Below the pieces are notes generated by a model, which worked only from the letters and a program-made list of their open reading frames with translations, did not search any database and had not been told where the DNA came from. From an uncultured Rhodobacteraceae bacterium (lineage in GTDB: Bacteria; Pseudomonadota; Alphaproteobacteria; Rhodobacterales; Rhodobacteraceae), in the NCBI GenBank assembly GCA_937895435.1, contig CALAXT010000018.1, positions 3,216 through 67,215 on the forward strand: a stretch of DNA of 64,000 nucleotides, read 5' to 3'. Below are positions 17,512-33,518 of the stretch, one piece after another (the first letter of the stretch is position 1; each line of letters begins with the position of its first letter). The position numbers and the translations under genes were made by a program.

Positions 17512-17547
17512 CGCCACACCATTTTGCACATTGTGTGACGGCTATCA

Positions 17548-18858: not shown

Positions 18859-18866
18859 GGCTGGCC

Positions 18867-21800
18867 TTACCTAAGCTGAAGAAGGGTGTCGAAAAGTTCT
18901 TTGGCGGTCGAAAGTATGCGCGCGGCCGCTTGATAGGCCTGTTGCTGTTCCAACAAATGCGCAGCCTCGGTATCAAGGTTAACCCCGTTTGATTCCGAAC
19001 GCGCATTATCTGCTGCGTTTTTCAACGCTGTGCTGGTGCTCAACGTCATGCCACTGGCCTGAACCGAGGCCCCAACACGCGTCAACATTTCTTGAAACAT
19101 GCCCTGAAACCCACCACGCCCATCGGTGCCAGTTTCCAGCGTCAGCATCGCGTCCAGATTACTGGCATCCCCAGTGGCCCCTGCCCCACCACTGACAACG
19201 CGGAAAATGTCATCATCAGACAGCGCACCTGAAACTGACAGGCTAAAGCCCGCCGCCTGCACCGGCGATCCGCTGCGCAATGTGCGCGTGGCTATCGAAT
19301 GCCCCGTGTCACGGTCAAAAATTTCAACCGTTCCAGCCGCCGCATTCATCACCCGCATTTCAACATCTGGCGCGGGCATCAGGCTGGCAGGTGTCAGATC
19401 ATAGGCTGCGCTCAGGCGGTTGGCCCCACCCCCGCTGGTGATCACAATCAGCTCTTCATCAGGCAGATCAGTCAGACGCACCCGGCTTGAGGCAAGCGAG
19501 CTGCCACTGGCATCAACCGAAATCGCCGCTCCATCGCGGCTGGTCATTTGAATTTGCCCATCAACAACGCGCAGACTGGCAGCCGCCACATTAAACCCAG
19601 CTGCTGCCGCGCTAGAACTGGGCTCAATCATCATCGGCAGCGTGCTGTCTGGGCCATAAAGCACAAGGGCATCGGTGCTGCTGGTGGATGTGCTCGCCCC
19701 CGTCGCAAAGGCAACTGTCAAGTCGGTCGCACCTGCTGTTGTCACACTCCACGTCGCCGAGTCGCTGTCATAAGACATGGTGATGGTTTCGGTCGTGTCA
19801 TCAACTGTGACATAAAACGTCGTATCATCGGTTGGCAGACTGACCGAAGCGCCCGTCAATTGCTGAGCCGTAGACACACCAGACAGGCCAAAGAGCGCCG
19901 CCGCAGCTTCATTGCCCGATACATCTGCATCCTCTGGAATGGCGAAGCCTTCACCACTTAAAATTCCTTGTGCAGCGCTCAGCCGCAGAATCATATCGCT
20001 GCCGATCACCGCCGTCAGGCGGCCATCTTCGGGGCCACTCACGACCACCTCACTGTCCACCATGGTCAGCGTATAGCTGTCGCCCGCCAGCGTGATTGTC
20101 AGCGATGTGCCATCATCTGGCAGATCGCTCATCTCTTCCCCCACCAAAGATGGCACTGGGGTATCTGCCCGCAGGCTGGCGGCCAAGGCGGCCGCCAGTT
20201 CTGTTTTATCCGCAGGGGTCAGGTCAGCACTGCTGATGGTCGCCGTGAAACTGGTGCCACCCGTATAACTTGCCGGCATCGTGACGCTATAGCTGGCGGC
20301 TGGCGCTTGTGCGGCCAAACCTTCGGGGTGGCTGTCGCCACCGTCAATCGCCTCTTCTATGGCGAAATCCAGCGTCAAGCTTTCGCCCGCAGTGCCGTAT
20401 TCCACCGACACCAGACCACCGCTCAGGGTATCTGCGGTACTGTCGCCCAGACTGGTTGAAAACGTATCAGACATCACAGCCGAAAAGCTCAACCGCCCCG
20501 CAGCACGCAGATCCGTCAGCCCCGTTGTGCCAGAAATCGATGTTGCATCAGACACTGCACTGTAATCAGCGTCCAGCACCTGTACGCTAAGACCAGCGCC
20601 ACTGGCCGTGCCAATACGAATATCTTCGCCATCTGACTGGGTCAGGATCAACCGCATTCCATCGCTGGATGTTTCAGCCACAATGCCTGTTTCTGATGAC
20701 AGCCGATTAATTGCAGTGCGCAGATTGGTCATATCACCGCTGGAAATTGACGTATCAATCGTCAGCGCGGTCAGGTTGCTGCCGGTCAGCTCAAACGTCA
20801 GGCTTTCAGAGCTGTCCGTATCCGTGGCGGTCAATTCAAGCCGGGTTATGGCAGTTACAGCGATTCCCATTGATTGCGTGGCTTCAGCCAATGTGCGCGC
20901 AGCATACCCGGCTGAAACCCCAGCAGGAATATCAACCGATACATCATCATAATCCGTGGCTGTGATCGTGATCGTCTGAGCGTCAGTGTTGCTGCCCGGC
21001 ACGTCATCGGTGCCGGTTTGCAGCACACCATCGCCATCCAATGTCGCAACCAGCGTCTGCGTGCCCGCCGAATTCATCACCTCAAGCCCCATACCACGAT
21101 AGGCATCAGCCCCTGTCAGGTTCAAGTAATCAGCGCGGTATTCAGCTTCAGCCGAAAAACCATTGGCCGTGGTAATCAAAGACGCAATCTGATCTGATGT
21201 CAGCGCGGTTCCTGCAATGTGGCGGCCCTCACGCGTGAAAATCTGAATGTCTGACGCATCGTCCACTGCGGCCGTCAGCGTCGGTTCGATGTCGCTGGCG
21301 GGGCCAGTGATCTGGCCTGTATCACTGAAATCAGTGGTGGCGGCCAAAACCAGCCGCCCCCCACCACCTGATGCATAGATCCCCAGATCGGCCATTGAAT
21401 AGCCGTCGTCGGTCTTCAATACGCCCGAATTCAGATAATCAGCCAACATGGTAAGATCGGTCCATGTGACAGCATCATCACTGGTATCTTCAATCAGCGA
21501 ACTATAGGTTACATCGACTTCATAGGCGGTGCCATTCACGGTGAATCCCAGCGTGCCGGCCAACGCCAAATCATCATCTGACACGACAAAAGACAGGCTG
21601 GATTGCCGACCAAAGCTGGCCAGTTCAACCGCCGTCGCATTGGCCGGGATCACCGCCACCACGCCCTCACGCAAAAAGCTGGTGGCCGCAACTGAGCTGA
21701 GACCGTTGTTAAAGGCGGAATCAATGCTGGCCTTATCGGTCAACGCGGCTGTAGGCTGCAACAGCGCGGTCACCATGGCCGAGCCATCATTGCCAATATC

Positions 21801-23117
21801 AGCCTGAACCGTCATCCCCGACGAGGCTGCGATTTCCTGCGAGCGGCTCAACAAAAAGGTCATGTTCAGCGCCGCGTCACCGGTCTTGCTTAAAACAAAT
21901 CCGTCGCCATCAGCCGCTGTTCCAGAAATCGCAATGCTGCCACCATCAAAGCTCAGTTGCTTGCGCCCTGTGGCAAGAACCTGCCCCGATGCGTCAACTG
22001 CGCTCCAAAGATCGGTGCTGGCCTTATAGCTCAGCCGCAATTCGGGCACGCCGTCAGGATCTGTCAGACTGCGCGACAGGCTCATGCTGGCAGTGCCAAG
22101 GTTGCCATTCTCGGCCTCAAAGGCATAGGCGGTCGATGAAAACATCGCCTTGCCTTTTTGGCCCTCAAGGTCTGTGCCTTGCATGTGTTGGGTGTTCATT
22201 TCAATGGTGATGGCTGATGCCAGCGTGTTCAGATCGTCCAGGGCCGCCGAAACCGCGCCATAAGCATCGGTCAGGCCGCGCAAAGCCCCACCGCCGGTCA
22301 ATTGCACCGGCGTGCCCTTGCCCATCAAACCGGTGGTGATCGCCAAACCATTCTCGCCGGCAGATATTGTCAGCGCATTGGCCCGGCTTGCGTTCACCAG
22401 CTCAACCCCGCCAAAGCTCGCGCCCATCGTCAGGGTGGCCTGCCCGCGCGTATCCAACTGCACGGAAACCTCTGTGATGGCGGAAATGCGGTCAATCAAC
22501 AAATCCCGCTCATCCAAAAGCGCAATCGGCGGCTTCCCACTTTGGCCGCCAGCACTGATTTGCGCATTGGTTGAGGACAGCGCCACTGTCAGCGCGTTCA
22601 GCTCACTTATTTCAGATTTGGCTTCGGCCAAAATTTGGTCAGACAAGCTGCCAAGCGTTTCGGCCGATGTGCGCACCGCACTGGCCAGCATCTTGCCCTG
22701 CTCGATGGCCACCATCCGCGGCGCGACGTCACCAGGCTGGGCGGCCACTTCGCTCAGGGATGTAAAGAATGCCTGCACAATACTGCCCAAGTCCCCCTCA
22801 GACGGCAAAAGCTGATTTTGCAAGGTGCGTATTTGGGCATCAAAGGCGCTGGCGGCTTCAAACTTTGCATCGGCACTGCGACTGCGTTCGGTCACAAATT
22901 CATCAAAGGCGCGACGAATTTCCCCCACCCGAACGCCCAGCCCAGTCTGCGCGGCAAGGCTTGTCATGGCACCCGCACTGCCAGAAACTTCTACGGTCAC
23001 GACATCGCGGCGGGAATAGCCTTCGGTATTGACGTTGACGATGTTTTGCCCGGTGACCGCCAGCGCATCACGCTGGGCCAAGACGCCACTGCGGCCGATA
23101 TCAATGAGGCTGGCCAT
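18867..23117 (-). CDS. flgK: Hook-associated protein 1 FlgK, giant form (1416 aa)
   Basis: The N-terminus MASLIDIGRSGVLAQRDALAVTGQNIVNVNTEGYSRRDV and C-terminus ...GVNLDTEAAHLLEQQQAYQAAARILSTAKELFDTLLQLR are canonical FlgK ends. A single uninterrupted ORF between flgJ and flgL. Confidence 0.9.
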   Translation of the reverse strand: MASLIDIGRSGVLAQRDALAVTGQNIVNVNTEGYSRRDVVTVEVSGSAGAMTSLAAQTGLGVRVGEIRRAFDEFVTERSRSADAKFEAASAFDAQIRTLQNQLLPSEGDLGSIVQAFFTSLSEVAAQPGDVAPRMVAIEQGKMLASAVRTSAETLGSLSDQILAEAKSEISELNALTVALSSTNAQISAGGQSGKPPIALLDERDLLIDRISAITEVSVQLDTRGQATLTMGASFGGVELVNASRANALTISAGENGLAITTGLMGKGTPVQLTGGGALRGLTDAYGAVSAALDDLNTLASAITIEMNTQHMQGTDLEGQKGKAMFSSTAYAFEAENGNLGTASMSLSRSLTDPDGVPELRLSYKASTDLWSAVDASGQVLATGRKQLSFDGGSIAISGTAADGDGFVLSKTGDAALNMTFLLSRSQEIAASSGMTVQADIGNDGSAMVTALLQPTAALTDKASIDSAFNNGLSSVAATSFLREGVVAVIPANATAVELASFGRQSSLSFVVSDDDLALAGTLGFTVNGTAYEVDVTYSSLIEDTSDDAVTWTDLTMLADYLNSGVLKTDDGYSMADLGIYASGGGGRLVLAATTDFSDTGQITGPASDIEPTLTAAVDDASDIQIFTREGRHIAGTALTSDQIASLITTANGFSAEAEYRADYLNLTGADAYRGMGLEVMNSAGTQTLVATLDGDGVLQTGTDDVPGSNTDAQTITITATDYDDVSVDIPAGVSAGYAARTLAEATQSMGIAVTAITRLELTATDTDSSESLTFELTGSNLTALTIDTSISSGDMTNLRTAINRLSSETGIVAETSSDGMRLILTQSDGEDIRIGTASGAGLSVQVLDADYSAVSDATSISGTTGLTDLRAAGRLSFSAVMSDTFSTSLGDSTADTLSGGLVSVEYGTAGESLTLDFAIEEAIDGGDSHPEGLAAQAPAASYSVTMPASYTGGTSFTATISSADLTPADKTELAAALAASLRADTPVPSLVGEEMSDLPDDGTSLTITLAGDSYTLTMVDSEVVVSGPEDGRLTAVIGSDMILRLSAAQGILSGEGFAIPEDADVSGNEAAAALFGLSGVSTAQQLTGASVSLPTDDTTFYVTVDDTTETITMSYDSDSATWSVTTAGATDLTVAFATGASTSTSSTDALVLYGPDSTLPMMIEPSSSAAAAGFNVAAASLRVVDGQIQMTSRDGAAISVDASGSSLASSRVRLTDLPDEELIVITSGGGANRLSAAYDLTPASLMPAPDVEMRVMNAAAGTVEIFDRDTGHSIATRTLRSGSPVQAAGFSLSVSGALSDDDIFRVVSGGAGATGDASNLDAMLTLETGTDGRGGFQGMFQEMLTRVGASVQASGMTLSTSTALKNAADNARSESNGVNLDTEAAHLLEQQQAYQAAARILSTAKELFDTLLQLR

Positions 23118-23120
23118 GAT

Positions 23121-23435: not shown

Positions 23436-23443
23436 CCAACCCC

Positions 23444-24601
23444 TTAAATGATTATAAGTTCTGCACGAAGCGCACCGGCCGCGCGCAGCGCCTCAAGAAT
23501 AGCGACCAGATCAGATGGGCTGGCCCCAACGGCATTGATCGCATCGACAATCGAGGAAAGATCAACACCGGTATCAAATACAAAGGCCGGTTTGTCTTCC
23601 TGTTGCACATCAATTGTGCTGTTCTCGGTCACGATCGGTTCCGCCGGGGTCACCACGGTCTGGGTGCCATTCATAGAAACGGTCGATTGCGGAGAAACTG
23701 TAGGGTCTTCGCTTACTTTTACGGTCAAAGCACCGTGCGAAACAGCCGCCGGTGTCACACGCACCTTGCCGCCAATCACAATCGTCCCCGTCCGGGCATT
23801 TACGATCACTTTGGCCGGTGGCTCGGCCGGATCTACCTCAATGTTTTCCAGCATGCCCACGAACGAAACCCGCTGTGCCGGATCGCTGGGCGCGCGCACC
23901 CGAATAGAGGATGAGTCAATGGCCACAGCCACATCCGGGCCGAACACTGCATTGATTGCATTGGCAACACTGGCGGCGGTTGAAAAATCGCCCCGGTGCA
24001 AGTTCATCATAATATTGTCAGATTCAAGAAAGGCGGTATCGACCATGCGTTCAACCGTGGCGCCTTGCGGCACCCGGCCCACGGTTGGAATGTTCACCAC
24101 CATGGTTGAGCCATCCAGCCCCTCGGCCGACAATCCGCCCACCAAAAGATTACCCTGGGCAATGGCATAGGTTTCGCCATCTGCGCCCAAAAGCGGCGTC
24201 ATCAGCAAAGTGCCGCCCCGCAACGACTTGGCCGAACCAATGGTTGACACCGTCACATCAAGGGTTTGACCAGGCTTGATAAAGGCTGGCAGCTCTGCTG
24301 TGACCATCACAGATGCCGCATTCGACGCCTTAAGATCCGACACAGCCGCCGTCTGCCCCAAACGCGACACCATAGATTGCATGGATTGCAGCGCCAACTG
24401 GCCACCGCTGCCATCACCCGTGCCCGGCAGACCCACAACCAAACCATATCCCACCAACTGGTTGGTGCGCGCCCCCGCGATGGCTGTCAAATCTTTCAGC
24501 CGATCAGCCTGTGCGGCAGGCGCCAAACAAACGATCATGGCAGATGCACAAAGGCTTAAGAAAATCGCGCGCAACACCCTGCGCGGGCCACACCCTGACA
24601 T
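23444..24601 (-). CDS. flgI: Flagellar P-ring protein FlgI
   Basis: [30 protein letters not shown]..., C-terminus ...[18 protein letters not shown]. Signal peptide [35 protein letters not shown] 24601 is preferred over the TTG at 24637. Confidence 0.9.
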
Positions 24602-24638
24602 CAGATTGAGTTGGCTGCGCGCCACACCGACCTCCAAT

Positions 24639-25340
24639 TTAAAACGGTGAAATAGCGGTCATGGCTTTGCCCAGCCAGCCGCGTTTGGAACTGTCGGCCA
24701 CATCCCCCGCACCGATATAGGTGATATCGGCATTGGCAATTCGGTCGGACAAAATCAGATTTTTTGAACTGATATCTTCAGGGCGCACCAAACCACGCAA
24801 ACGAATATATTCATCACCATTGTTCAGCGTGATTTTCTTTTGGCCCAAGATTTCCATCGTCCCATTCGGAAATACCCGCATCACGGTTACAGACATTTGA
24901 CCCGTCAGTGAATTTGACTGCTCGGCACCGCCTGTGCCCGCAAAAGATTGGGTTGTGCCCGAATCCAGCCGTGAATCAGTGAACCCGCCCGACAACACGT
25001 CAGGCAGATCAAGCGAAAAGCTGTCATCTTTGGTCGAAGAGGCCTTCTGCGACTTGGTCGCAGCAAAAGCTTCGGTGAAATAGACCGTGACGATATCACC
25101 CACGCGCGACGCCCGACCATCACGGGCAAATAAACCAGCCTCGCTGCCCTTATAGATCGCGCCCGTGCTGGCGCCCCGCCCAACGTCGATCATTTCTTCG
25201 GGGTAAACCGGCTGAAAATCGGCGCTGGCACGATCTTCGACATAGGTCGAACACCCAGAAAGCGTGGCCACAACGGCTAAGACCGCCATAAACCCGCGTG
25301 ACATGCTGTGCGTCGAACCATGGGCCATCATCGCAAACAT
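24639..25340 (-). CDS. flgH: Flagellar L-ring lipoprotein FlgH
   Basis: 233 aa. Lipobox VATLSGC. ...[28 protein letters not shown]... and ...[20 protein letters not shown] fit the FlgH pattern. Confidence 0.9.
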
Positions 25341-25342
25341 CC

Positions 25343-26131
25343 TCAGAGATTGTTCGAAACGAAGCGCATCATCTCATCCACAGCTGTGATCGACTTTGAG
25401 TTGACCTCATAAGCGCGCTGCGTCTCGATCATATCAACCAACTGCTGAACAACATTGACGTTAGAGCCTTCAAGCGAGCCCTGCACCAACTTACCAAAAC
25501 CCTGATCCAGCGGGGCAGCCACGACGGGCGCGCCACTCGCGGGGGTTTCCACCAAAAAGTTCTCACCCACCGGCAAAAGCCCACGCGGGTTGGCAAAATT
25601 GGCAAGGGTCAACGCACCAACTTCTTGCATTTTGGCGTCACCAGGAATGGAAACCGAAACCGTGCCATCAGCCGCAATGCTGATTTGCATGGCATCATCT
25701 GGAATGGTGATTTCAGGCTGCACCACATATCCGCTGGCGGTGGTCAACGCCCCATCGACGCTGCGCGAAAAATTGCCTGCACGTGTATATCCCATCGTGC
25801 CATCAGGCAGTAAAACCTGAAAAAATCCCTGACCATCAATCGCCAAATCCAAAGAGTTTTCGGTCGTGATCATCGCGCCCTGGGAATAGAGCTTTTCAGT
25901 GTTTACCGTACGCACCCCGGTCCCGATGGCCAAGCCTGCCGAGAGCATGCTGTCAACACCCGTGCGGTCGCCACCCGTGCGCGACACCTGATAGAGCAGG
26001 CTTTCGAAATTCGGGCGATCACGTTTAAAGCCAGTGGTGCTGGCGTTGGCTAGGTTGTTTGAAATTGTCTGCATGCGCAATTGTTGCGCACTTAGACCGG
26101 TTGCCGCTACGTGCATTGCGCTTGAAGACAT
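25343..26131 (-). CDS. flgG: Distal rod protein FlgG
   Basis: 262 aa. MSSSAMHVAATGLSAQQLRMQTISNNLANASTTGFKRDRPNFESLLYQ... and ...GSLEGSNVNVVQQLVDMIETQRAYEVNSKSI. Confidence 0.9.
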   Translation of the reverse strand: MSSSAMHVAATGLSAQQLRMQTISNNLANASTTGFKRDRPNFESLLYQVSRTGGDRTGVDSMLSAGLAIGTGVRTVNTEKLYSQGAMITTENSLDLAIDGQGFFQVLLPDGTMGYTRAGNFSRSVDGALTTASGYVVQPEITIPDDAMQISIAADGTVSVSIPGDAKMQEVGALTLANFANPRGLLPVGENFLVETPASGAPVVAAPLDQGFGKLVQGSLEGSNVNVVQQLVDMIETQRAYEVNSKSITAVDEMMRFVSNNL

Positions 26132-26169
26132 GATCTGGGCTCCTGAAAAGTGGTGTCATGCACCCTTTT

Positions 26170-26184
26170 GCAAAAGCCGTGCCA
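26170..26184 (-). promoter_or_regulatory. Sigma-54 promoter of the flgG-H-I-J-K-L operon
   Basis: The minus strand reads TGGCACGGCTTTTGC (perfect consensus), in the 80-nt flgF-flgG gap, ~39 nt upstream of the flgG ATG. Confidence 0.8.
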
Positions 26185-26211
26185 GATCACATGGGCGCGC
26201 ACCGCGCAAAA

Positions 26212-26973
26212 TCAAACATTGGGCATCCGCATGATTTCGGTGCCGCGCTCATCAATTTCTTGGGCTTGCTTGACAAACTTCACGGCAATCTCGAAAGCCC
26301 GTTGGGTGTCGATGGAACTCACCAATTCATCAACGGTGTTGACGTTGCTGCCCTCGATAGAACCTTGAACGATTTGCCCCAACTGATCGGGCGCTGGCAA
26401 GGCAGAGCCATCCGACATGCGAATAAAACCCGTCCCTTCTTTTGAAAGATCAGCGCCGACAGCCGTCGTGATGCCAAGTTCCGCCACGACTTCTTTTACC
26501 CCCGGCAAACCACCCGCCGGTTCTATTGTAATCTCACCAAATTTCCCGATCGAAATATAGCGATACTCAGGAATGAAGATTTCCGCGCCCGAGCTGTCGA
26601 GCACTTTTTGATCAGCACCATTCACCAAGATGCGATCGGCATTTAGCTTAAGATCCCCACGACGGCTGAGCGCAGGCGCGCCATTGTCAGGCTGAATGTA
26701 GAAATAGCCATCATTGATAAAGGCCAAATCAAGCTCTGCACCCGTTTCCGTGACAAGACCGGGCGCGTTTGAAAAATGTGATTTTCCCGAAGGGGGCACA
26801 TAGGCCCGCGATGAAAATTCCCCCATCGCCTCCAAAAAAGAACTGCCGCCCTGCGCCGAGATATCACGGCGATACCCCGAAACCGAGATGTTGGCGATAT
26901 TTTGCGCCTGCAACACGGTCTCATTGCGGATATTTTTCATGTTGTTTAGCGCAACGTGAATCATCTTATCCAT
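26212..26973 (-). CDS. flgF: Proximal rod protein FlgF
   Basis: 253 aa. MDKMIHVALNNMKNIRNETVLQAQNIANISVSGYRRD... and ...GSIEGSNVNTVDELVSSIDTQRAFEIAVKFV. Between flgE and flgG. Confidence 0.85.
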   Translation of the reverse strand: MDKMIHVALNNMKNIRNETVLQAQNIANISVSGYRRDISAQGGSSFLEAMGEFSSRAYVPPSGKSHFSNAPGLVTETGAELDLAFINDGYFYIQPDNGAPALSRRGDLKLNADRILVNGADQKVLDSSGAEIFIPEYRYISIGKFGEITIEPAGGLPGVKEVVAELGITTAVGADLSKEGTGFIRMSDGSALPAPDQLGQIVQGSIEGSNVNTVDELVSSIDTQRAFEIAVKFVKQAQEIDERGTEIMRMPNV

Positions 26974-27002
26974 GGCGGCAGTCCCTTCTCTTTGGGCCCA
27001 GA

Positions 27003-30000
27003 TTACATCCGGATGTTAATGATCGTCTGCGTGAGCGAGGTCGAGGTTTCAATCGCCTTAGCTGATGCCTGATAGTTCCGCTGCGCAGTGATCAGGTTTA
27101 CCAGCTCTTCGGTGATATCAACGTTTGAACGCTCAAGCGAGCCTGACAAGATTGAGCCGAACCCCTCAGACCCTGCTTCACCAACCGAAGGTGAGCCCGA
27201 CACCGCGGTTGCAACATAGGTCGCATTGCCGATTTGTTTCAGACCATTTTGGTTGTTGAAGTTCGCAATAACGATCTTACCCAACGGATTGTTTTGACCG
27301 TTGGTATAGTTGGCCCGGATTGTGCCCGAGCTGTCGATTTCCAAACCATCCAGACGGCCCGAGGTAAAGCCATCCTGCTCAACCGACAGCACCGAGAACG
27401 GCTGTGCAAGCTGGGTTGAACCAGCAAAATCAACCTGCAATGAGATGGAGAACCCAGCCTCTTGCTGCTCATAGCTTACCATGTTCTGCGGGCTGAGCAA
27501 TTTACCCGATTTGTCAAAGGTCAGCTCGCCTTCGTCGATATAAAGCGGGTAGTATCCCGTAACCATGTTTTCGGGTGGGCTTTCAACAGTGTTCCCGTTC
27601 GCATCAACATAAAGTGCGATGCCCTGGTCGTTTGTGGCCTGTACCAGATTATAGATCATCGGCACTGAGCCCACGCCCAGCGGCACATCCGCCAAGCCAA
27701 GCCGCGCAGTTCCTTTGACCTTTATGGTCGTGTCGCTGCCGGTGGTGCCAGTGGTAAAGGTAAAGTTGTTATCGGCAGAGCTGTAGCGCACCTTGACCCC
27801 ACCCACAGTATCACCACTCAGCGGGTCTTGGATTTGGTTGATGCGCTCTTCCAAAGCCGCGGCCAGCGTGGTGCCCACGTAGTTGCCTGATGGCACCTGG
27901 ATAACACCACTGATGCCATTGACCGAGATATTGAAAGTTGTCTCGCCACCCGCCGAGCTCAGGCGGAAAATCTCGCCCAGATCTTCGTTGGCTGTGCCCC
28001 CGATTGCAACCGCAGCCGAAGCCGCCAAACCACGACCATCGACAAAGAGCGCGTCAGACTTACTGGCGCCAACCCCCATCAGCTGGTTATCGCCCACACC
28101 AAGATAGCGGCTGTCAGCATCGACACTGGAAGACAAAACACTGCCATCAGTCGACGAAATTGAGTAGCGCCCCACCTGAATGTTTGATGCTTTTTGCGCA
28201 GTTGTCACACCAATCGCACCATCCGCCGCAATCGCCTCACCTGTCGAACCTGACGCAAAAGAAAAGTTCTGCGTGTCTGAGTTATAGGTGACCGTAATTC
28301 CATAACGTTTATCGTTCAGCTGCACCTCTTCGCCATCGGCAACAAAGGGTTCGCCATAAAACACTTCACCGCCCCGGATCAAAACTGTTGAGGCATCGCC
28401 TGGGGCAGGAATACCCAACCCATTGGTCGAATCTGCTGACGTGTCACCACCAATTTTAAAAGAGTTAAAGCCGCTATCAGTCCCCATCCCCAAGATCGAA
28501 CGATCAACCTCAAAGGAAAAACGTTGGTTGATTTCGTCATAATAAATCGAAACGGGCGGAGCTTTTTCATCGACCCACTGGGTTGCGATCGTGGCACCAT
28601 CGAGGCCGAGCAAAGCGACCGTATCAATCGTCTCACCATCGGCATCGACGTTCAGCAGGGCTGCTGAGTCGAATTCAAAAATGTTCAGACCGGCTGTATT
28701 GAAGCTGGACGTATCTGCCGCAAACGAAGCGTTGGTGTAATCATGCAGCGCATCTGATCCAAATTCACGCACAACCAGCTTGCTACTGTTATAATTCACG
28801 GTAGAGCCTGGGATCACATCGCTGGCACCTTCATAAAATGCCTCAACCGTGTCTGATTCATCGCTCATCAAATAGACTGATGTCGATTCAATTGTGAAAT
28901 CTGCATCTGGCAGTGCCAGGTTGGTGGTATCAACCGTGATAAGACCATTGGTCTCATCCACACTCAGCACAGTAAACGCACGACCGTTCAGATACCCGCC
29001 GTAGCCGCTTTCGCCTTCGGTCACAAAGTCACCCGCGATGCGGATACTTTCACCAGCAACCAAACAGGCATTGCCATTATCGTTGTCAGCAAAGCCAGTG
29101 GTTGGGTCCATATAAATGGTCAGCGTATTTTGCGCGGCATTATAGCTCATCGTTTTGCCATAATCCGTGTCTGTTGTATCAGTCACAGCAGAAACCTGAT
29201 CGCGGCGCTCATAGACGTTGAGCGTGGAACGGTTGTTGTAATATGAATGTACCAAGTTCAGATCCGTTGACAGCATCTCACCATAGGTGTCGCTTGTGCT
29301 GTCGGTATCTTCATAGTTACGCGTAAACGTCACAATGTCTGTGGTTTCCAGAACCGCATCCATCTCTTCACCCAAGGCACGGGCAAAAAAGCTTGAATCA
29401 ACCCCAAGAGCCGAATCGTTTGAAATATCGGTATCGGGGTCAATGGCGTAATCATTGAGGGTTTCATTGATACGGGCCTGCGCATGGGCCAAAAATTCCT
29501 CAAAGGAAAAATCAGGCGACGCACCCGATGTATCGATACCGGCAAGGTCTGATACAAAGCTAGAGGTCAGCAGATCAACCTCAATCACATCATCAAGCCC
29601 TTCAGACGTTCCATCTGCGGCCAGTTTGAAAAGATCGATGGTCAGGGTATCATCAACGTTCCGCTGCACCTGAATTTTGCGATCATCGCCATAGGCGGCG
29701 TTGATCGCACGCTCAACTTCCGCCGCCAATTGCTCAGCATTATACTTGCCGGGCCGCAGATCGATGCTGACAGGCTGATCGCCATCATCCACATTGACCA
29801 ACAAAAAGTCTTTGCCCCAGTACACATCGCTTGAACTGTTGCCAGCTTCGCGGGTTGACATGAACTGCATCGGGTCGGTGACAATTTCAACCAGCTTGTC
29901 GCCTTCTTCCCCAAAGTCAAAGCTGGTTTCTTCCCCAGTCAGCGTTGCAGGGGATGAGGGCACAAGGGTTTGCAAATCATCCAGCTTATAAAGCGGCGAG

Positions 30001-30842
30001 CCCTTGCCCTCGATGAAATAGTTGTCATCAGGGACGACACTGGTCGTGTTGCCAAAACGGTCAATATACTGCTGACGACCAGAGTCATCGACAGCAGGCA
30101 CCAGATCAGGATCAATGACGATACCGTCAATCACCAGACGTGTATCATATTTGTTGGTTGGGTCTTCACTGGAAGCCGCTTGGGTTTTGATGAAATACAT
30201 CGTGGCGATCGTTGGGTTACCAAGATCATCGAAGATCGTCATCGAGGTTGAGTTGGTATAGGTATCTGGGTCATCAGGATCAAAGGTATAACCTTCTGCA
30301 AACTGTGGCTTGTCCGTCACCACTTCGGCCGAAGCTGCAACGTTCACACCCAATTCAATCAAGCTGGTGGCCTTTGGGTCACCCGATGTGACAGGCAGCT
30401 GCAACGGCATTGCACTATCAAGATCTTTGGCGGTCACCGATCCATCGTCGTTGACCGGGTAAACCATCAGATACTGGCCAGCAGAATCCACCACATAGCG
30501 GTCATTGTTCACGCTAAGCGAACCGTTGCGGGTATAAACCGTCTGCGACGAGCTAAGCGACGGCTTCAGCGTGAAAAACCCCTGACCCGAAATCGCCAGA
30601 TCCAGAGCGTTCAGCGATGAAGCAACGTTACCTTGGGTGAACTGTTGCTTGATCCCCTTCAAGATCGTGCCCGAACCGATCGATGATGACGCGTTTTGCA
30701 AGGGCGATGTGGCAAAGATATCGCCAAATTCTGCCCGGCTGCGTTTAAAGCCCGTCGTCCCAACGTTTGCGATGTTGTTCGACGTGGCCGCGATATCTGC
30801 TTGTGAGCCATTGAGGCCGGTCAGCGCTGTGTAGAATGACAT
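27003..30842 (-). CDS. flgE: Flagellar hook protein FlgE, giant form (1279 aa)
   Basis: N-terminal ~240 aa (MSFYTALTGLNGSQADIAATSNNIANVGTTGFKRSRAEF..., ISGQGFFTL, VYTRNGSLSV, FDDLGNPTIATMYFIKT) and C-terminal ~173 aa (LTFDKSGKLL...GSLERSNVDITEELVNLITAQRNYQASAKAIETSTSLTQTIINIRM) are canonical FlgE D0/D1 and the base of D2. A single ORF between flgD and flgF. Confidence 0.9.
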   Translation of the reverse strand: MSFYTALTGLNGSQADIAATSNNIANVGTTGFKRSRAEFGDIFATSPLQNASSSIGSGTILKGIKQQFTQGNVASSLNALDLAISGQGFFTLKPSLSSSQTVYTRNGSLSVNNDRYVVDSAGQYLMVYPVNDDGSVTAKDLDSAMPLQLPVTSGDPKATSLIELGVNVAASAEVVTDKPQFAEGYTFDPDDPDTYTNSTSMTIFDDLGNPTIATMYFIKTQAASSEDPTNKYDTRLVIDGIVIDPDLVPAVDDSGRQQYIDRFGNTTSVVPDDNYFIEGKGSPLYKLDDLQTLVPSSPATLTGEETSFDFGEEGDKLVEIVTDPMQFMSTREAGNSSSDVYWGKDFLLVNVDDGDQPVSIDLRPGKYNAEQLAAEVERAINAAYGDDRKIQVQRNVDDTLTIDLFKLAADGTSEGLDDVIEVDLLTSSFVSDLAGIDTSGASPDFSFEEFLAHAQARINETLNDYAIDPDTDISNDSALGVDSSFFARALGEEMDAVLETTDIVTFTRNYEDTDSTSDTYGEMLSTDLNLVHSYYNNRSTLNVYERRDQVSAVTDTTDTDYGKTMSYNAAQNTLTIYMDPTTGFADNDNGNACLVAGESIRIAGDFVTEGESGYGGYLNGRAFTVLSVDETNGLITVDTTNLALPDADFTIESTSVYLMSDESDTVEAFYEGASDVIPGSTVNYNSSKLVVREFGSDALHDYTNASFAADTSSFNTAGLNIFEFDSAALLNVDADGETIDTVALLGLDGATIATQWVDEKAPPVSIYYDEINQRFSFEVDRSILGMGTDSGFNSFKIGGDTSADSTNGLGIPAPGDASTVLIRGGEVFYGEPFVADGEEVQLNDKRYGITVTYNSDTQNFSFASGSTGEAIAADGAIGVTTAQKASNIQVGRYSISSTDGSVLSSSVDADSRYLGVGDNQLMGVGASKSDALFVDGRGLAASAAVAIGGTANEDLGEIFRLSSAGGETTFNISVNGISGVIQVPSGNYVGTTLAAALEERINQIQDPLSGDTVGGVKVRYSSADNNFTFTTGTTGSDTTIKVKGTARLGLADVPLGVGSVPMIYNLVQATNDQGIALYVDANGNTVESPPENMVTGYYPLYIDEGELTFDKSGKLLSPQNMVSYEQQEAGFSISLQVDFAGSTQLAQPFSVLSVEQDGFTSGRLDGLEIDSSGTIRANYTNGQNNPLGKIVIANFNNQNGLKQIGNATYVATAVSGSPSVGEAGSEGFGSILSGSLERSNVDITEELVNLITAQRNYQASAKAIETSTSLTQTIINIRM

Positions 30843-30894
30843 GTCGCACTCCCTTTATGTTCGAGGACGATTTTTGCTTCTTTTGAAAATTTGA

Positions 30895-31590
30895 TCAGGC
30901 GCGGAACCGCAGCACGTTATTGGCGTTCACTTCGCCATAATCGCGCACATCCAGCATCACCCCATCAGCACTGCCAACCGAGGTGCCAAGCACATCGGCA
31001 AAAACAGCTGGCTGTAATTCTTCAGCGCCCTTACCCGCATTAATCATGGCCTGAATGCGCACACGCTTTGCACCCGAAGCGTAATCTGCTGGCAGTCCGG
31101 TCCAGCTGAACCCAACCAATCCCTGCGCTTGCGCGCCCAAGTCCATTGAGTGCACGACCTCACCGGTCGTGGCATCCGAAAAGGTAAGTGTCGTCAGCGA
31201 CGAAGCCGATGGCAGATCAAGCGCACCATTGATTTCACCGTTTTCATCCGCGCGCGCCAAGTTGCCGGGCACCAACACTTTGTGCCCAAGCAGCGTCGTT
31301 GCCGTTGCGATACGAAATTCTTTAAGCTGGTCGGCCAAACCCGTCATGGTGGCCCCCATCTCACGGATGCCCGTCACGGTCGAAAACTGGGCCATCTGCG
31401 CGATAAAGTCACCATTATCCATGGGCTTGAACGGATCTTGGTTTTGCAGCTGCGCCGTCATCAATTTAAGAAATTCTTCTTGACCAAGCTGATCTGACGA
31501 GCCAGCAGTCTCGCTGGGCCCAGCGTTGATCCCCAGCTTTTCAAACAAAGCAGCCTGTGCGGTGCTGGCGGCGGCGTTGACTTCAGCCAT
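30895..31590 (-). CDS. flgD: Hook capping/scaffold protein FlgD
   Basis: 231 aa. ...LGQEEFLKLMTAQLQNQDPFKPMDNGDFIAQMAQFSTVTGI... is the FlgD N-terminal signature. Confidence 0.9.
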   Translation of the reverse strand: MAEVNAAASTAQAALFEKLGINAGPSETAGSSDQLGQEEFLKLMTAQLQNQDPFKPMDNGDFIAQMAQFSTVTGIREMGATMTGLADQLKEFRIATATTLLGHKVLVPGNLARADENGEINGALDLPSASSLTTLTFSDATTGEVVHSMDLGAQAQGLVGFSWTGLPADYASGAKRVRIQAMINAGKGAEELQPAVFADVLGTSVGSADGVMLDVRDYGEVNANNVLRFRA

Positions 31591-31604
31591 TGAACTATCC
31601 TTGC

Positions 31605-32021
31605 TTATTTGCCCATGTTGGCCGTGCGCAGCATCAATGTGCGCAGGGTCGACACGACTTCGAGGTTGTTTTGATACTGCCGGCCGGCTTCCAGCATTTC
31701 GACCATTTCTTCATCAACATCGACAGCGGCCGAATAAACATATCCCTCACCATCCGCACTGGGATGATCGGGCATGTAAGTACGCGCAGGCTGACGATTG
31801 AGCGCCACCACATCCACCACATCCGTGGTCGACAGGCCGCTTTTACGGATATTGCTGTCATATTCTGTGGAAAAAACCGGGCGAATGGCGCGATAGGCCT
31901 CTTCTTGCGTGCTGGCCGCGGAACGCGCATTGGCAAGGTTACTGGCAACCGTGTTCAATCGTACCATCTGGGCCGCCATAGCCCGGCTTGCGACATCAAA
32001 AACATTACGGATCTCGGCCAT
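31605..32021 (-). CDS. flgC: Proximal rod protein FlgC
   Basis: 138 aa. ...ASRAMAAQMVRLNTVASNLANARS... and ...VDVDEEMVEMLEAGRQYQNNLEVVSTLRTLMLRT. The ATG overlaps the flgB stop (TAATG). Confidence 0.9.
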   Translation of the reverse strand: MAEIRNVFDVASRAMAAQMVRLNTVASNLANARSAASTQEEAYRAIRPVFSTEYDSNIRKSGLSTTDVVDVVALNRQPARTYMPDHPSADGEGYVYSAAVDVDEEMVEMLEAGRQYQNNLEVVSTLRTLMLRTANMGK

Positions 32022-32407
32022 TATTCCCCCCGTATCGCGGACATCAAACCAGAAATCCGGTTATTAATGAAATTCAGCGTGGTCTGATAGCGCACCACGT
32101 TTTCTGAAAACTGCATTTGCTCAACACTTAGCTCAACGGTGTTGCCATCAAGCGAGGGCTGCAATGGCTGGCGATACAGCATTTGATCAGGGCGCGGGTT
32201 AACCGCTGCAGCCAAATGGCGGGAATCCGTGGTTTTTAAATCACCGATTGGTTCAATTTTGGCCATCTCAGCGCTAAAATCAACGTCACGCGCCTTGAAA
32301 TTCGGCGTGGCAGCGTTGGCGATATTTGACGCCAAAACCGCATTCCGCTTTTCACGCAAAGCAAGGGCGTTTACATAAAAGCCCAGATGTTGCTTAATGC
32401 CTTCCAT
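32021..32407 (-). CDS. flgB: Proximal rod protein FlgB
   Basis: Start set at ATG 32407 (128 aa: MEGIKQHLGFYVNALALREKRNAVLASNIANAATPNFKARDVDF...) because the sigma-54 promoter at 32460-32474 lies within the longer track ORF. Confidence 0.85.
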   Translation of the reverse strand: MEGIKQHLGFYVNALALREKRNAVLASNIANAATPNFKARDVDFSAEMAKIEPIGDLKTTDSRHLAAAVNPRPDQMLYRQPLQPSLDGNTVELSVEQMQFSENVVRYQTTLNFINNRISGLMSAIRGE

Positions 32408-32459
32408 CGAAATATTCCGTGCCACTTTGATTTGATTACGCTTCAGTCGCAGGAATTCT

Positions 32460-32474
32460 GCAAAACGCGTGCCA
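32460..32474 (-). promoter_or_regulatory. Sigma-54 promoter of the flgB-C-D-E-F operon
   Basis: The minus strand reads TGGCACGCGTTTTGC (perfect consensus), with the -12 ~53 nt upstream of the flgB ATG at 32407. Confidence 0.8.
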
Positions 32475-32499
32475 ATCTGAAACAAGTCAGGAAAAAGTA

Positions 32500-33099
32500 A
32501 TGTCAGTTCAAAATGTCGCCGCAAAAACAGCCGCTACGCGTGATGTTGAAAAGTTGCGCAGCGCAACGTTAAAACGCTTTGAAAAAACGCCGGTGCGCGA
32601 AGCAATCGTATCTTTGCGCACACAATTGGCAACGGAAACAGATGAGCGTCTGCGACTTGGGCTGTTGTCCGCGCGGGTGGAATTGGTGCGCCAACAAACC
32701 GCGCAAATCCGCGAAATGGACGGCCACACCGCCCCCCGCACCATGCGCAACGATGCAAATCCCGCATCCGTCCAGACCCAAGCCGGGGCATCAAGCGACA
32801 ACCACGACAGCGACAAGGCCCGCGCGGCGGGCATCATGATACCGGACGACCCGCAAACACCGCCCTCAGGCTGGCAGCGGCTGCGGGTGACAGAGACAAC
32901 TGTGGTAAACGGTGTGCGCTTTCCAGCCGGCGTGCAAATTGAGGTCTCTCAGGATGATGCAGACAGGCTGGTTGAGGCCAATATGGCCGAGCGCCTGGCC
33001 ATACCCGCACAGACCGCCGAGACAACCACAGAAAAATCCACCCCCGCAAAACGCCCTGCCCGTAAAAAGCCTGCCCCCAAGGCTAAAGGTGCCACATGA
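32500..33099 (+). CDS. Hypothetical protein divergent from flgB (coiled N-terminus, Lys-rich tail)
   Basis: 199 aa. AGGA lies 7 nt upstream of the ATG. MSVQNVAAKTAATRDVEKLRSATLKRFEK...ends TPAKRPARKKPAPKAKGAT. It is the longest of many open frames in a GC-rich stretch. Its stop overlaps the next start (ATGA). Confidence 0.5.
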   Translation: MSVQNVAAKTAATRDVEKLRSATLKRFEKTPVREAIVSLRTQLATETDERLRLGLLSARVELVRQQTAQIREMDGHTAPRTMRNDANPASVQTQAGASSDNHDSDKARAAGIMIPDDPQTPPSGWQRLRVTETTVVNGVRFPAGVQIEVSQDDADRLVEANMAERLAIPAQTAETTTEKSTPAKRPARKKPAPKAKGAT

Positions 33100-33434: not shown

Positions 33435-33518
33435 CGCAGAAAATCATCGCCTCGGCATAGAATTTGCAAAAATTTGGTCGTTGCTATTGCAGCAGTAGCG
33501 ATAACACAGGGTGCGATC

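What the first reader, a model, noticed from the sequence alone, without database searches (positions are those of the whole stretch)
27543..30125. Hyper-expanded hook protein: FlgE of 1279 aa with an ~860-aa insertion replacing the D2 tip
The first ~240 aa and last ~173 aa add up to a normal ~400-aa hook protein: D0/D1 plus the FDDLGNPTIATMYFIKT and LTFDKSGKLL elements that normally bracket D2. Between them lies ~860 aa of acidic, Cys-poor (single Cys) sequence. It has two Flagellin-IN-motif-like modules (VSIDLRPGKYNAEQLAAEVERAINAAYG; FNISVNGISGVIQVPSGNYVGTTLAAALEERINQIQ). It also has a recurring strand motif (VSIYYDEINQRFSFEV / ITVTYNSDTQNFSFASGSTG / VKVRYSSADNNFTFTTGTTG / KTMSYNAAQNTLTIYMDPTTG). 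The largest hooks I know of (epsilonproteobacteria, about 700-870 aa) are much smaller, and I recall R. sphaeroides FlgE as ordinary-sized. With ~120 copies per hook, this would build a very thick, multi-domain outer hook layer. Some stretches of the insert are visibly AT-richer than the conserved ends in my spot counts, hinting at separate origins. Together with giant FlgK and the mini-FlgE, this is the best candidate here for an undescribed flagellar architecture.
Basis: partly seen in the sequence, partly recalled or inferred. Interest (0 to 1): 0.7.

Follow-up and report, generated by a model that had tools for sequence, protein, structure and literature searches.

The report
Giant flagellar hook protein (FlgE)
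This marine bacterium's flagellar hook protein is three times the usual size because a folded arm of about 850 amino acids sits inside its outer domain; the same giant hook gene occurs in many ocean bacteria, but I found no paper that studies it.

Summary
Window 27003-30842 (-) is one uninterrupted 1279-aa ORF lying between flgD and flgF. Both ends are ordinary FlgE (D0, D1, D2). About 850 aa (aa ~246-1096) are inserted in a D2 loop.

It is not an assembly artefact. The identical protein is on 10 independently assembled contigs. Relatives of 1239-1650 aa occur in at least 161 species genomes: Roseobacter group (including isolates HIMB11, LSUCC0031 and nBUS_22), SAR116 and PS1. More distant versions occur in Oceanospirillaceae and Limnohabitans.

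AlphaFold models the insert as a confident, rigid, beta-rich unit (pLDDT 86.6, pTM 0.82). It has no significant Pfam match and no similarity to Campylobacter D3/D4. One conserved module weakly resembles contractile-phage tail proteins (sheath-annotated hits) and FliD. Modules near D2 are conserved (69-73% identity). The middle modules are hypervariable (33-36%) and gain further insertions in relatives. FlgK is also giant here (1416 aa) and in two relatives.

Best reading: this is the real hook subunit, and it adds outer layers to the hook (roughly 32-34 nm wide by mass scaling), probably changing its stiffness. That function is inferred. Several side claims failed: significant IN motifs, Ca2+ patches, and foreign origin from AT content. 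It is a new variant of a known kind, uncharacterised in the literature searched.

The parts
27003..30842 (-). flgE, 1279 aa, 135.5 kDa, pI 4.05: the giant hook protein
   Evidence: ORF. Pfam and NCBIfam FlgE architecture. Mass and pI. The identical sequence is on 10 contigs.
30108..30842 (-). N-terminal core, aa 1-245: D0, D1 and the first part of D2, up to strand KYDTRLVIDG
   Evidence: Aligns with Vibrio-type FlgE 8z5u/9yee residues 3-215 and Salmonella 3a69 residues 1-203. 86% mean identity over aa 1-240 to 15 collinear homologues.
27555..30107 (-). Insert, aa 246-1096 (about 850 aa): an acidic, beta-rich, multi-module arm emerging from a D2 loop
   Evidence: No counterpart in solved FlgE sequences. 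AF2 pLDDT 86.6 and pTM 0.82 for aa 225-1130. No significant Pfam hit.
29403..29990 (-). Proximal N-side module(s), aa 285-480, containing VSIDLRPGKYNAEQLAAEVERAINAAYG (strand-helix motif)
   Evidence: pLDDT above 90. 69% identity to homologues. Reciprocal profile match to aa 970-1003.
28563..29402 (-). Hypervariable middle modules, aa 481-760, inferred to be the outermost part; includes the site (aa ~705-733) where relatives carry a further 50-240 aa
   Evidence: 33-36% identity against 83-86% in the core; GC3 0.505 (aa 481-700) and 0.517 (aa 701-845). Nested length variation in relatives.
27939..28562 (-). Modules aa 761-968 with the recurring 'V.Y....F.F.SG(S/T)TG' strand motif (764, 849)
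   Evidence: 58-63% identity. Profile match 847-871 <-> 1014-1038. pLDDT falls from above 90 to 51-62 over aa ~840-940 when aa 740-1105 is modelled alone, which suggests these residues pack against the N-terminal half of the insert.
27618..27938 (-). Proximal C-side module, aa 969-1075 (FNISVNG...KVKGTARLGL): the module most widely shared with distant relatives
   Evidence: 73% identity. pLDDT 92-98. Most distant relatives share insert-query positions ~665-865. The Foldseek hits below were obtained with the aa 740-1105 model, and I assign them to this module only because it is the confident part of that model; the aligned query residues were not reported: phage E217 8env_A and cyanophage A-1(L) sheath-tube entry 8kee_C (prob 1.00) and H. 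pylori FliD 6iwy (prob 0.97).
27003..27554 (-). C-terminal core, aa 1097-1279: the rest of D2, D1 and D0
   Evidence: Aligns with 8z5u/9yee residues 290-437 and C. jejuni 5jxl residues 652-850. 83% identity over aa 1076-1279.
18867..23117 (-). flgK, 1416 aa: the first hook-filament junction protein, also giant
   Evidence: Pfam FlgK_D1 and TIGR02492. Relatives with a giant FlgE have FlgK of 1618 and 1547 aa. No sequence similarity between the FlgE and FlgK inserts.
30895..31590 (-). flgD (hook cap), 231 aa, normal size, immediately upstream
   Evidence: Pfam FlgD, FlgD_ig, FlgD_tudor.
   Evidence: FlgF models are the two best hits, both below their curated cut-offs: NF009280 167 bits against 210, TIGR02490 113 bits against 178.5. 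Canonical position after flgE.

Best explanation
This is the genuine hook subunit of a polar flagellar gene cluster. The cluster resembles the Vibrio type and the 'fla3' type of Rhodobacterales. The window comes from a marine Paracoccaceae (Roseobacter-group) genome.

Shown: D0, D1 and D2 are conventional. A D2 surface loop has been expanded into an ~850-aa, strongly acidic, beta-rich arm of several modules that is predicted to fold as one rigid unit. The modules at the two ends of the insert, next to D2, are conserved. The modules in the middle of the insert are hypervariable.

Inferred: the conventional core should polymerise into the usual 11-protofilament tube. With about 120 copies, the arms would add concentric outer layers beyond D2, as D3 and D4 do in Campylobacter. 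The hook would then widen from about 18 nm to roughly 32-34 nm and weigh roughly 16 MDa. The modules next to D2 probably make contacts between subunits that change the hook's bending and torsional stiffness and its robustness. The variable middle modules would form the exposed surface. The equally enlarged FlgK would continue this thick layer at the hook-filament junction.
For: Identity as FlgE:
- Full Pfam architecture, and gene order flgB-C-D-E-F-G-H-I-J-K-L.
- No other full-length hook gene in the 64-kb window.

Real and under selection:
- The identical protein is on 10 contigs from four sources.
- All 120 listed homologues are 1246-1492 aa.
- 161 species genomes are confirmed, and the complete ORFs I could read in the 80 fetched loci are 1239-1575 aa.
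- Representative sequences reach 1650 aa with complete FlgE ends.

Folded rigid arm:
- pLDDT 86.6, pTM 0.82, and 551 of 906 residues at pLDDT 90 or above.
- A C-terminal fragment modelled alone loses confidence (pTM 0.44), so the two halves of the insert appear to pack together.

Inside-out conservation gradient: 0.86 / 0.69 / 0.33-0.36 / 0.58-0.63 / 0.73 / 0.83. There is a nested insertion hot-spot at aa ~705-733.

Precedent: C. jejuni D3/D4 are inserted within D2, widen the hook from 180 to 280 A, and make it stiffer and more robust (PMC5069557, PMC5097172, PMC9254593).

Width estimate (my arithmetic): R^2 per kDa is 193-213 A^2 from those two hooks, which gives R = 162-170 A for 135.5 kDa.

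Motor context: FlgT, an LPP20-family lipoprotein, FlhF, FlhG, FliA, two sigma-54 activators and a 209-aa Sel1-repeat protein are in the cluster. The closest solved core is the 434-437-aa FlgE of 9yee/8z5u. I take these entries to be Vibrio polar-flagellum structures from memory and from the title of a preprint on the Vibrio polar motor; I did not verify the link.

Co-adaptation: giant FlgK in this window and in two relatives.
Against: - No experimental data exist: no hook image, no protein gel, no mutant.
- The insert shows no fold similarity to Campylobacter D3/D4, so the analogy is architectural only.
- The hypervariable middle modules fit a surface or interaction role as well as they fit relaxed constraint.
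- FlgL (426 aa) and FliD (565 aa) are not enlarged, and the flagellin gene is not in the window, so the rest of the filament architecture is unknown.
- A Paracoccaceae genome may carry a second flagellar cluster with an ordinary FlgE (PMC11974857 reports fla1/fla3 combinations).
Confidence: 0.55

Rival explanations
1. The arm is mainly a surface or interaction device, not a mechanical one. It would be a variable, acidic coat on the hook used for adhesion, for shielding the hook from flagellotropic phages or grazers, or as a scaffold for glycans. Any stiffening would be a by-product.
For: The middle modules are hypervariable (33-36% identity) and gain extra insertions in relatives, as in flagellin hypervariable regions. 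The conserved module resembles surface domains of phage contractile-tail proteins, and DUF3383-like modules recur in flagellin hypervariable regions (PMC5595980 Table 1). The insert is strongly acidic.
Against: The hook is a very small part of the flagellar surface, so a purely surface role gives little reason to triple the size of FlgE and FlgK. The modules next to D2 are well conserved (69-73%) and the arm is predicted rigid, which suits structural contacts. No adhesin, lectin or enzyme domain was detected.
Confidence: 0.2
2. The arm exists to match the hook's diameter to an unusually thick junction and filament, or to an outer sheath-like layer. The thick filaments built from giant flagellins in marine gammaproteobacteria would be the analogue. 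The expansion of FlgE would then be secondary to the filament architecture.
For: FlgK, the protein that sits directly on the hook, is also giant here and in two relatives. Giant flagellins that give thick filaments are documented in marine bacteria (PMC6248924).
Against: FlgL (426-428 aa) and FliD (565 aa) are not enlarged. The flagellin gene is not in the window, so its size is unknown. The FlgE and FlgK inserts are unrelated in sequence.
Confidence: 0.15
3. Artefact or non-functional gene: a fused or chimeric ORF, a pseudogene, or a paralogue that is not used in the hook.
For: None found, apart from the lack of any experimental data.
Against: The identical 1279-aa ORF is on 10 independent contigs. 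There are hundreds of full-length relatives, including a complete isolate chromosome (CP179201) and single-cell genomes. The reading frame is intact. The insert is conserved at 58-73% identity in most modules and folds confidently. The gene sits in the canonical position between flgD and flgF.
Confidence: 0.03

Closest known systems
Campylobacter jejuni / Helicobacter pylori FlgE with extra domains D3 and D4 (PDB 5jxl, 5az4, 5npy; TIGR02489)
   Same: A large insertion within D2 of an otherwise conventional FlgE. In C. jejuni it adds concentric outer layers, widens the hook (280 against 180 A) and makes it stiffer and more robust (PMC5069557, PMC5097172).
   Different: The insert here is about 850 aa against about 386 aa. 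It has at least five modules instead of two. The TIGR02489 score is 151.6 against a cut-off of 412.85. None of the epsilonproteobacterial FlgE structures appears among the top 50 Foldseek matches to the insert. The core is closest to the 434-437-aa FlgE of 9yee/8z5u, not to the epsilonproteobacterial type.
FlgE of PDB 8z5u / 9yee (434-437 aa), which I take to be Vibrio polar-flagellum FlgE, and the C. sphaeroides Fla1-type ('fla3-type') cluster
   Same: These are the closest solved core sequences (E 3.5e-69 and 2.3e-67). The cluster content is similar to that kind of polar system: FlgT, an LPP20-family lipoprotein, FlhF/FlhG, FliA, sigma-54 activators and a short rod-binding-only FlgJ.
   Different: Those FlgE proteins have only about 75 residues where this protein has about 910 (chain 213-290 against query 222-1132). 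The organism behind the two PDB entries is from memory and from a preprint title, not verified.
Giant flagellins of marine gammaproteobacteria (Bermanella marisrubri, Oleibacter marinus; PMC6248924)
   Same: An axial flagellar protein of marine bacteria expanded beyond 1000 aa by insertions in its surface-exposed middle, which gives a thicker structure. Evolution there was stepwise by nested insertion.
   Different: It is a different protein (flagellin, not the hook), and that paper does not discuss FlgE size. No Flagellin_N or Flagellin_C domains occur here.
Surface domains of contractile-phage tail proteins (Pfam DUF3383; PDB 8kee_C, 8env_A) and FliD domains (6iwy)
   Same: The aa 740-1105 model matches them structurally (prob 0.97-1.00, 122-165 aligned columns). 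The confident part of that model is aa ~940-1070. Relatives give sub-threshold DUF3383 hits on the 'V.Y....F.F.SGTTG' motif. DUF3383 is also listed among domains found in flagellin hypervariable regions (PMC5595980).
   Different: E-values are only about 2.5e-3 and TM-scores 0.15-0.24. The window sequence itself has no DUF3383 hit. PHROGs gives nothing significant. The identity of chain 8env_A is unverified: E217 sheath gp31 and baseplate gp45 are both 504 aa (PMC10329688). This is a shared module at most, not family membership.

Membership tests
FlgE, flagellar hook protein (FlgE/F/G superfamily) | N-terminal Flg_bb_rod motif (PF00460) | tested here: met
   aa 3-33, 28.7 bits against cut-off 20.7.
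FlgE, flagellar hook protein (FlgE/F/G superfamily) | D1 domain (PF22692) and C-terminal Flg_bbr_C (PF06429) | tested here: met
   D1 at aa 83-126, 37.9 bits against 27. C-terminal motif at aa 1233-1277, 62 bits against 23. TIGR03506 FlgEFG_subfam 289.6 bits against 70.25.
FlgE, flagellar hook protein (FlgE/F/G superfamily) | D2 domain specific to hook proteins (PF07559) | tested here: met
   75.6 bits against 22.7, in two stretches split by the insert.
FlgE, flagellar hook protein (FlgE/F/G superfamily) | Whole-protein score above NCBIfam FlgE equivalog cut-offs | tested here: not met
   Best is NF004238 at 375.3 bits against a cut-off of 400. All other FlgE equivalogs are also below cut-off. 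Both halves of these ~400-450-aa models match; the shortfall reflects the split by the insert.
FlgE, flagellar hook protein (FlgE/F/G superfamily) | Gene position between flgD and flgF in a flagellar operon | tested here: met
   flgB-C-D-E-F-G-H-I-J-K-L on the minus strand, 17578-32524. The same order is seen in two relatives.
FlgE, flagellar hook protein (FlgE/F/G superfamily) | Polymerises into the hook | not testable with these tools
   Needs hook purification or cryo-EM.
Epsilonproteobacterial large FlgE (TIGR02489; D3/D4 domains) | TIGR02489 score at or above 412.85 | tested here: not met
   151.6 bits, from the shared ends only.
Epsilonproteobacterial large FlgE (TIGR02489; D3/D4 domains) | Insert domains share the D3/D4 folds | tested here: not met
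   5jxl, 5az4 and 5npy are absent from the top 50 Foldseek PDB matches for both insert models.
Epsilonproteobacterial large FlgE (TIGR02489; D3/D4 domains) | Insertion located inside D2 | tested here: inconclusive
   The alignment breaks at aa ~224 and ~1081 lie within D2, as in C. jejuni (codons 233-618; PMC5069557). Residue-level equivalence of the loop was not established.
Flagellin_IN motif (PF07196) | Pfam match at or above 22.7 bits | tested here: not met
   Best in the insert is 9.6 bits, E=1.4, on aa 969-1075. One distant relative (P0159) reaches 17.3 bits. The two 'IN-like' modules do match each other by profile.
DUF3383 / surface domain of contractile-tail proteins | Pfam PF11863 at or above 34.9 bits | tested here: not met
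   No hit in the window sequence. 5 of 14 relatives have sub-threshold hits, the best at 22.2 bits and E 7.5e-5, on profile positions 136-203. The hits are absent when full-length proteins are scanned.
DUF3383 / surface domain of contractile-tail proteins | Fold similarity to solved or predicted tail proteins | tested here: inconclusive
   8env_A and 8kee_C: prob 1.00, E 2.5-2.8e-3, rmsd 4.7-5.0 A over 122-143 columns, TM 0.15-0.24. BFVD proteins named tail sheath: prob 1.00, E 8e-5 to 2e-4.
Giant flagellins (PMC6248924) | Flagellin_N / Flagellin_C terminal domains | tested here: not met
   Not detected in this protein. The rod/hook-type termini are present instead.

The most novel reading that the evidence does not exclude
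Abundant motile marine Alphaproteobacteria (Roseobacter group, SAR116, PS1), and some planktonic Beta- and Gammaproteobacteria, build a distinct class of hook. In it, FlgE's own outer modules, possibly sharing ancestry with phage contractile-tail surface domains, form a continuous lattice about 32-34 nm wide around the universal joint. This lattice is matched by a giant FlgK collar and sets the hook's stiffness or buckling threshold for fast polar swimming and turning.
Probability: 0.3. Interest if true: 0.75.

Novelty: new variant of a known kind. Interest (0 to 1): 0.55.

Why it matters
Hook mechanics (bending stiffness, buckling, torque transmission) govern how single-flagellum marine bacteria swim and turn. 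All structural knowledge of hooks comes from FlgE proteins of 865 aa or fewer.

Here a hook subunit of 1240-1650 aa is conserved in some of the ocean's most abundant motile heterotrophs, and cultured strains are available (HIMB11, LSUCC0031, nBUS_22). This makes a direct question testable: what do several hundred extra residues per subunit do to a universal joint?

It also extends to the hook what is already known for flagellins, namely that axial proteins grow by nested insertion of outer domains. Outer-domain surveys so far cover flagellins; the 2024 survey (PMC11532411) does not mention FlgE. Finally, it hints that such modules are shared with phage tail proteins.

Tried and rejected
- Self-BLAST of FlgE for internal repeats found nothing at E<=10. 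Only profile searches recover the motifs.
- BLASTP of the FlgE insert against the giant FlgK showed no similarity (best E 0.36), so the two expansions are independent in sequence.
- Pfam on five insert segments gave no significant family.
- PHROGs on 14 relatives gave nothing significant.
- A profile of the conserved C-terminal insert region against all PDB sequences gave no hit even at E<=10.
- Foldseek of the whole insert against the PDB gave no match at E<=0.001.
- Ca2+-binding motif counts were not above shuffled expectation.
- GC and GC3 as evidence of foreign origin were rejected. The dip is modest, tracks the fastest-evolving modules, and fliD is even lower.
- Intein or enzyme insertion was rejected, because no such domain was found.
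- A motif search of the six-frame translation for a flagellin gene in the window found none.
- The first genome scan, with a 14-sequence alignment, failed for lack of a conserved stretch. It was repeated with 5 sequences.
- A neighbour-joining tree of FlgE cores shows taxon labels interleaved. MAG labels are too unreliable for me to claim horizontal transfer from it.
- Literature searches for giant or large FlgE found no relevant paper.

Full report
**1. The observation**

Window 27003..30842 on the minus strand is one uninterrupted 1279-aa ORF. The finding's coordinates (27543-30125) are aa 240-1100 of it. Every quoted motif is at the stated place, there is a single Cys (C593), and the middle is strongly acidic: net charge -99 over aa 225-1130, and pI 4.05 for aa 241-1075.

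Pfam finds the complete hook-protein architecture: Flg_bb_rod at 3-33, D1 at 83-126, FlgE_D2 in two pieces, and Flg_bbr_C at 1233-1277. TIGR03506 (FlgE/F/G subfamily) passes its cut-off. The FlgE equivalog models each match in two halves and fall just short of their cut-offs (NF004238: 375 against 400 bits).

Against solved structures, the N-terminal homology runs to aa ~221-224 (Vibrio-type 8z5u/9yee and Salmonella 3a69). It resumes at ~1081-1137. Read by eye, the D2 strands KYDTRLVIDG (~235-245) and YPLYIDEGELTFD (~1097-1109) bracket an insert of about 850 aa in a D2 loop. In the 434-437-aa FlgE of 9yee/8z5u, only about 75 residues lie between the last N-terminal and first C-terminal aligned positions. 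D2 is therefore retained, not replaced.

**2. Surroundings and source**

The gene lies in the canonical order flgB-C-D-E-F-G-H-I-J-K-L.
- FlgJ is a 104-aa protein whose sequence looks like a rod-binding domain only. The syntenic 97-100-aa genes in two relatives carry Pfam Rod-binding.
- FlgK is itself giant (1416 aa), whereas FlgL (426 aa), FlgD (231 aa) and FliD (565 aa) are not enlarged.
- The cluster also holds flgA, flgT, an LPP20-family lipoprotein, flhA, flhF, flhG, fliA, two sigma-54 activators, a 209-aa Sel1-repeat protein and fliL.

This content is that of a Vibrio-like polar system, the 'fla3-type' cluster of Rhodobacterales exemplified by C. sphaeroides (PMC11974857). That paper reports that fla3 spread by horizontal operon transfer.

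The window's pyrB product is identical to MDP5344504.1 from a 'Paracoccaceae bacterium' MAG. No flagellin gene is in the window. The 'mini-FlgE' next to flgE is FlgF.

**3. Not an artefact, and not unique**

- The identical 1279-aa protein is recorded on 10 contigs from NCBI, JGI, ENA and Logan assemblies.
- The 120 best homologues are all 1246-1492 aa and cover the whole query.
- A scan of one genome per species confirmed relatives in 161 species, a lower bound set by the two search patterns. The 80 best loci are titled as SAR116/Puniceispirillales, PS1/Rhodobiaceae and Rhodobacteraceae/Paracoccaceae. They include cultured HIMB11 (FlgE 1465 aa), LSUCC0031 (1374 aa) and the complete chromosome of nBUS_22 (1364 aa). 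The complete ORFs I could read range from 1239 to 1575 aa.
- In a library of 1.84 billion representative proteins, only 360 match the insert at E<=0.001. The long matches I scanned with Pfam carry FlgE domains and reach 1650 aa.
- More distant versions (933-1153 aa) that share the C-terminal insert region occur in Oceanospirillaceae, 'Ca. Azotimanducaceae' and freshwater Limnohabitans.
- Two relatives examined with 10-kb flanks have the same synteny and FlgK of 1618 and 1547 aa.

**4. Anatomy of the insert**

AlphaFold2 on aa 225-1130 with 66 sequences gives mean pLDDT 86.6 and pTM 0.82. Low confidence is confined to the truncated D2 stubs at both ends. The fold is beta-rich with a few helices. 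A pTM this high for 906 residues implies a defined mutual arrangement of the modules.

Modelling aa 740-1105 alone lowers confidence (pLDDT 76.8, pTM 0.44). Residues ~840-940 drop from above 90 to 51-62, while ~940-1070 stay at 92-98. I take this as evidence that the two halves of the insert pack together, which fits a nested arrangement.

Conservation against 15 collinear homologues follows an inside-out gradient:

| Region (aa) | Mean identity |
|---|---|
| 1-240 (core) | 0.86 |
| 285-480 | 0.69 |
| 481-760 | 0.33-0.36 |
| 761-968 | 0.58-0.63 |
| 969-1075 | 0.73 |
| 1076-1279 (core) | 0.83 |

Relatives carry a further 50-240 aa at aa ~705-733. This is the pattern known from flagellin outer domains: modules near the core are constrained, and the outermost part is free to vary and to accept further insertions.

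The recurring motifs are detectable only with profiles. The strand-helix element at 348-383 pairs with 970-1003, and 'V.Y....F.F.SG(S/T)TG' at 847-871 pairs with 1014-1038. The copies at 764 and 563 do not reach significance.

**5. What the modules resemble**

- No Pfam family is significant in the insert. Flagellin_IN reaches only E=1.4.
- The whole insert has no PDB match at E<=0.001. Campylobacter and Helicobacter FlgE structures do not appear among the top 50.
- Against predicted viral structures, the best local matches include proteins named tail sheath (prob 1.00, 139-249 columns) and baseplate proteins.
- The aa 740-1105 model, whose confident part is aa ~940-1070, matches a 504-aa chain of phage E217 (8env_A), chain 8kee_C of the cyanophage A-1(L) sheath-tube entry (both prob 1.00, rmsd 4.7-5.0 A, 17-20% identity), and H. 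pylori FliD (prob 0.97). E-values are only about 2.5e-3 to 2.7e-2. The tool did not report which query residues align.
- Independently, 5 of 14 relatives give sub-threshold Pfam DUF3383 hits on the SGTTG motif (best 22.2 bits against a cut-off of 34.9). DUF3383 labels a 504-aa protein among the structural genes of the Pseudomonas phage JJ01 (PMC9583000). It is also the seventh most frequent domain found in flagellin hypervariable regions (PMC5595980, Table 1).

I read this as a plausible but unproven shared module between flagellar outer domains and contractile-tail surface domains. The identity of chain 8env_A is unverified, because E217 sheath gp31 and baseplate gp45 are both 504 residues (PMC10329688).

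**6. Mechanism**

Shown: a conventional polymerising core, a large folded and conserved insertion inside D2, a co-occurring giant FlgK, and wide conservation.

Inferred: the arms project outward and form additional layers. The precedent is C. jejuni FlgE ('one of the longest', 865 aa). Its ~386-aa D3/D4 insertion in D2 widens the hook from 180 to 280 A and adds contacts that make it stiffer and more robust (PMC5069557, PMC5097172, PMC9254593).

Scaling cross-section with subunit mass from those two hooks gives about 32-34 nm for a 135.5-kDa subunit. About 120 subunits would give about 16 MDa. Both figures are my own arithmetic.

I favour a mechanical role, in which hook stiffness or robustness is tuned for a polar motor with extra periplasmic components. 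The rivals are a surface-interaction role for the variable tip and diameter matching to a thick junction or filament. These are not mutually exclusive.

**7. Sub-claims that failed**

- D-x-D-x-D patches are not enriched: 3 against 2.3 expected.
- There is no Ca2+-binding motif.
- The AT-richer stretches are a modest GC3 dip that follows the fast-evolving modules, and fliD in the same window is lower still.
- The FlgE and FlgK inserts are unrelated in sequence.

**8. Novelty**

Searches of the held literature found no paper on hook proteins above 1000 aa.
- The giant-flagellin paper does not discuss FlgE size.
- The 2024 survey of flagellar outer domains contains no mention of FlgE and mentions the hook only in passing.
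- The HIMB11 genome paper infers motility only from the presence of the genes.

Public databases auto-annotate these proteins as FlgE. I therefore classify this as a new variant of a known kind: FlgE with outer domains, taken much further, with unrelated folds, and in ecologically important marine bacteria. Interest is moderate to good. It is directly testable in available cultures, but it extends an established principle and is not a new one.

Noticed in passing
window 18867-23117 (-): FlgK is also giant (1416 aa) with its own long middle insert, which has a sub-threshold Flagellin_IN hit at aa 772-828. Relatives with a giant FlgE have FlgK of 1547-1618 aa, while FlgL stays at about 426 aa. 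The FlgK insert shows no sequence similarity to the FlgE insert.
   Followed up: partly
window 15912-16673 (-) and 16738-17529 (-): Between fliA and flgL lies an extra 253-aa rod/hook-family protein (Flg_bb_rod, D1, Flg_bbr_C), separate from flgF and flgG. Next to it is a 263-aa ORF with no Pfam match. The role of both is unknown.
   Followed up: no
protein P0139 (2492 aa, Logan assembly; found): This protein has 28 ALTTAQ repeats, an FlgE_D2 domain and a FlgD Ig-like domain, but no rod-type N- or C-terminal motifs. It matches the C-terminal part of the FlgE insert (39% identity over all matched stretches; best stretch about 190 aa). It looks like a non-axial protein that reuses hook D2 plus the conserved insert module.
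   Followed up: partly
window 23121-23435 (-): FlgJ is only 104 aa, and its sequence looks like a rod-binding domain with no muramidase domain. The syntenic 97-100-aa genes in two relatives carry Pfam Rod-binding. From memory, C. sphaeroides Fla1 is similar, which fits the fla3-type assignment.
   Followed up: no
window 995-2158 (-) and 2491-3597 (+): Two divergently oriented sigma-54 activators. One lacks a detectable HTH_8 DNA-binding domain and the other has it. This is reminiscent (from memory) of the FleQ/FleT pair of C. sphaeroides.
   Followed up: no
window 5874-6503 (+): A 209-aa Sel1-repeat protein inside the flagellar cluster. The size and family resemble MotX of Vibrio T-rings (from memory). 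The hit is below the Pfam cut-off.
   Followed up: no
window 33474-35171 (+): fliD has clearly lower GC (0.465) and GC3 (0.484) than all neighbouring flagellar genes (GC3 0.56-0.65).
   Followed up: no
window 43162-45372 (+): A 736-aa protein with RTX calcium-binding nonapeptide repeats lies just beyond a peptide ABC-transporter operon.
   Followed up: no
loci L001-L080: FlgE core sequences (first 224 plus last 150 aa) are 88-90% identical between this Paracoccaceae window and genomes labelled SAR116, PS1 or Rhodobacteraceae, and the labels interleave in a neighbour-joining tree. This suggests horizontal spread of the whole cluster, but MAG taxonomy labels are unreliable.
   Followed up: partly
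The sub-threshold Pfam DUF3383 hits appear when trimmed ~300-370-aa fragments of relatives are scanned, but vanish when the same proteins are scanned full length. I assume this is an effect of HMMER's filters or length correction, but it is unexplained.
   Followed up: partly
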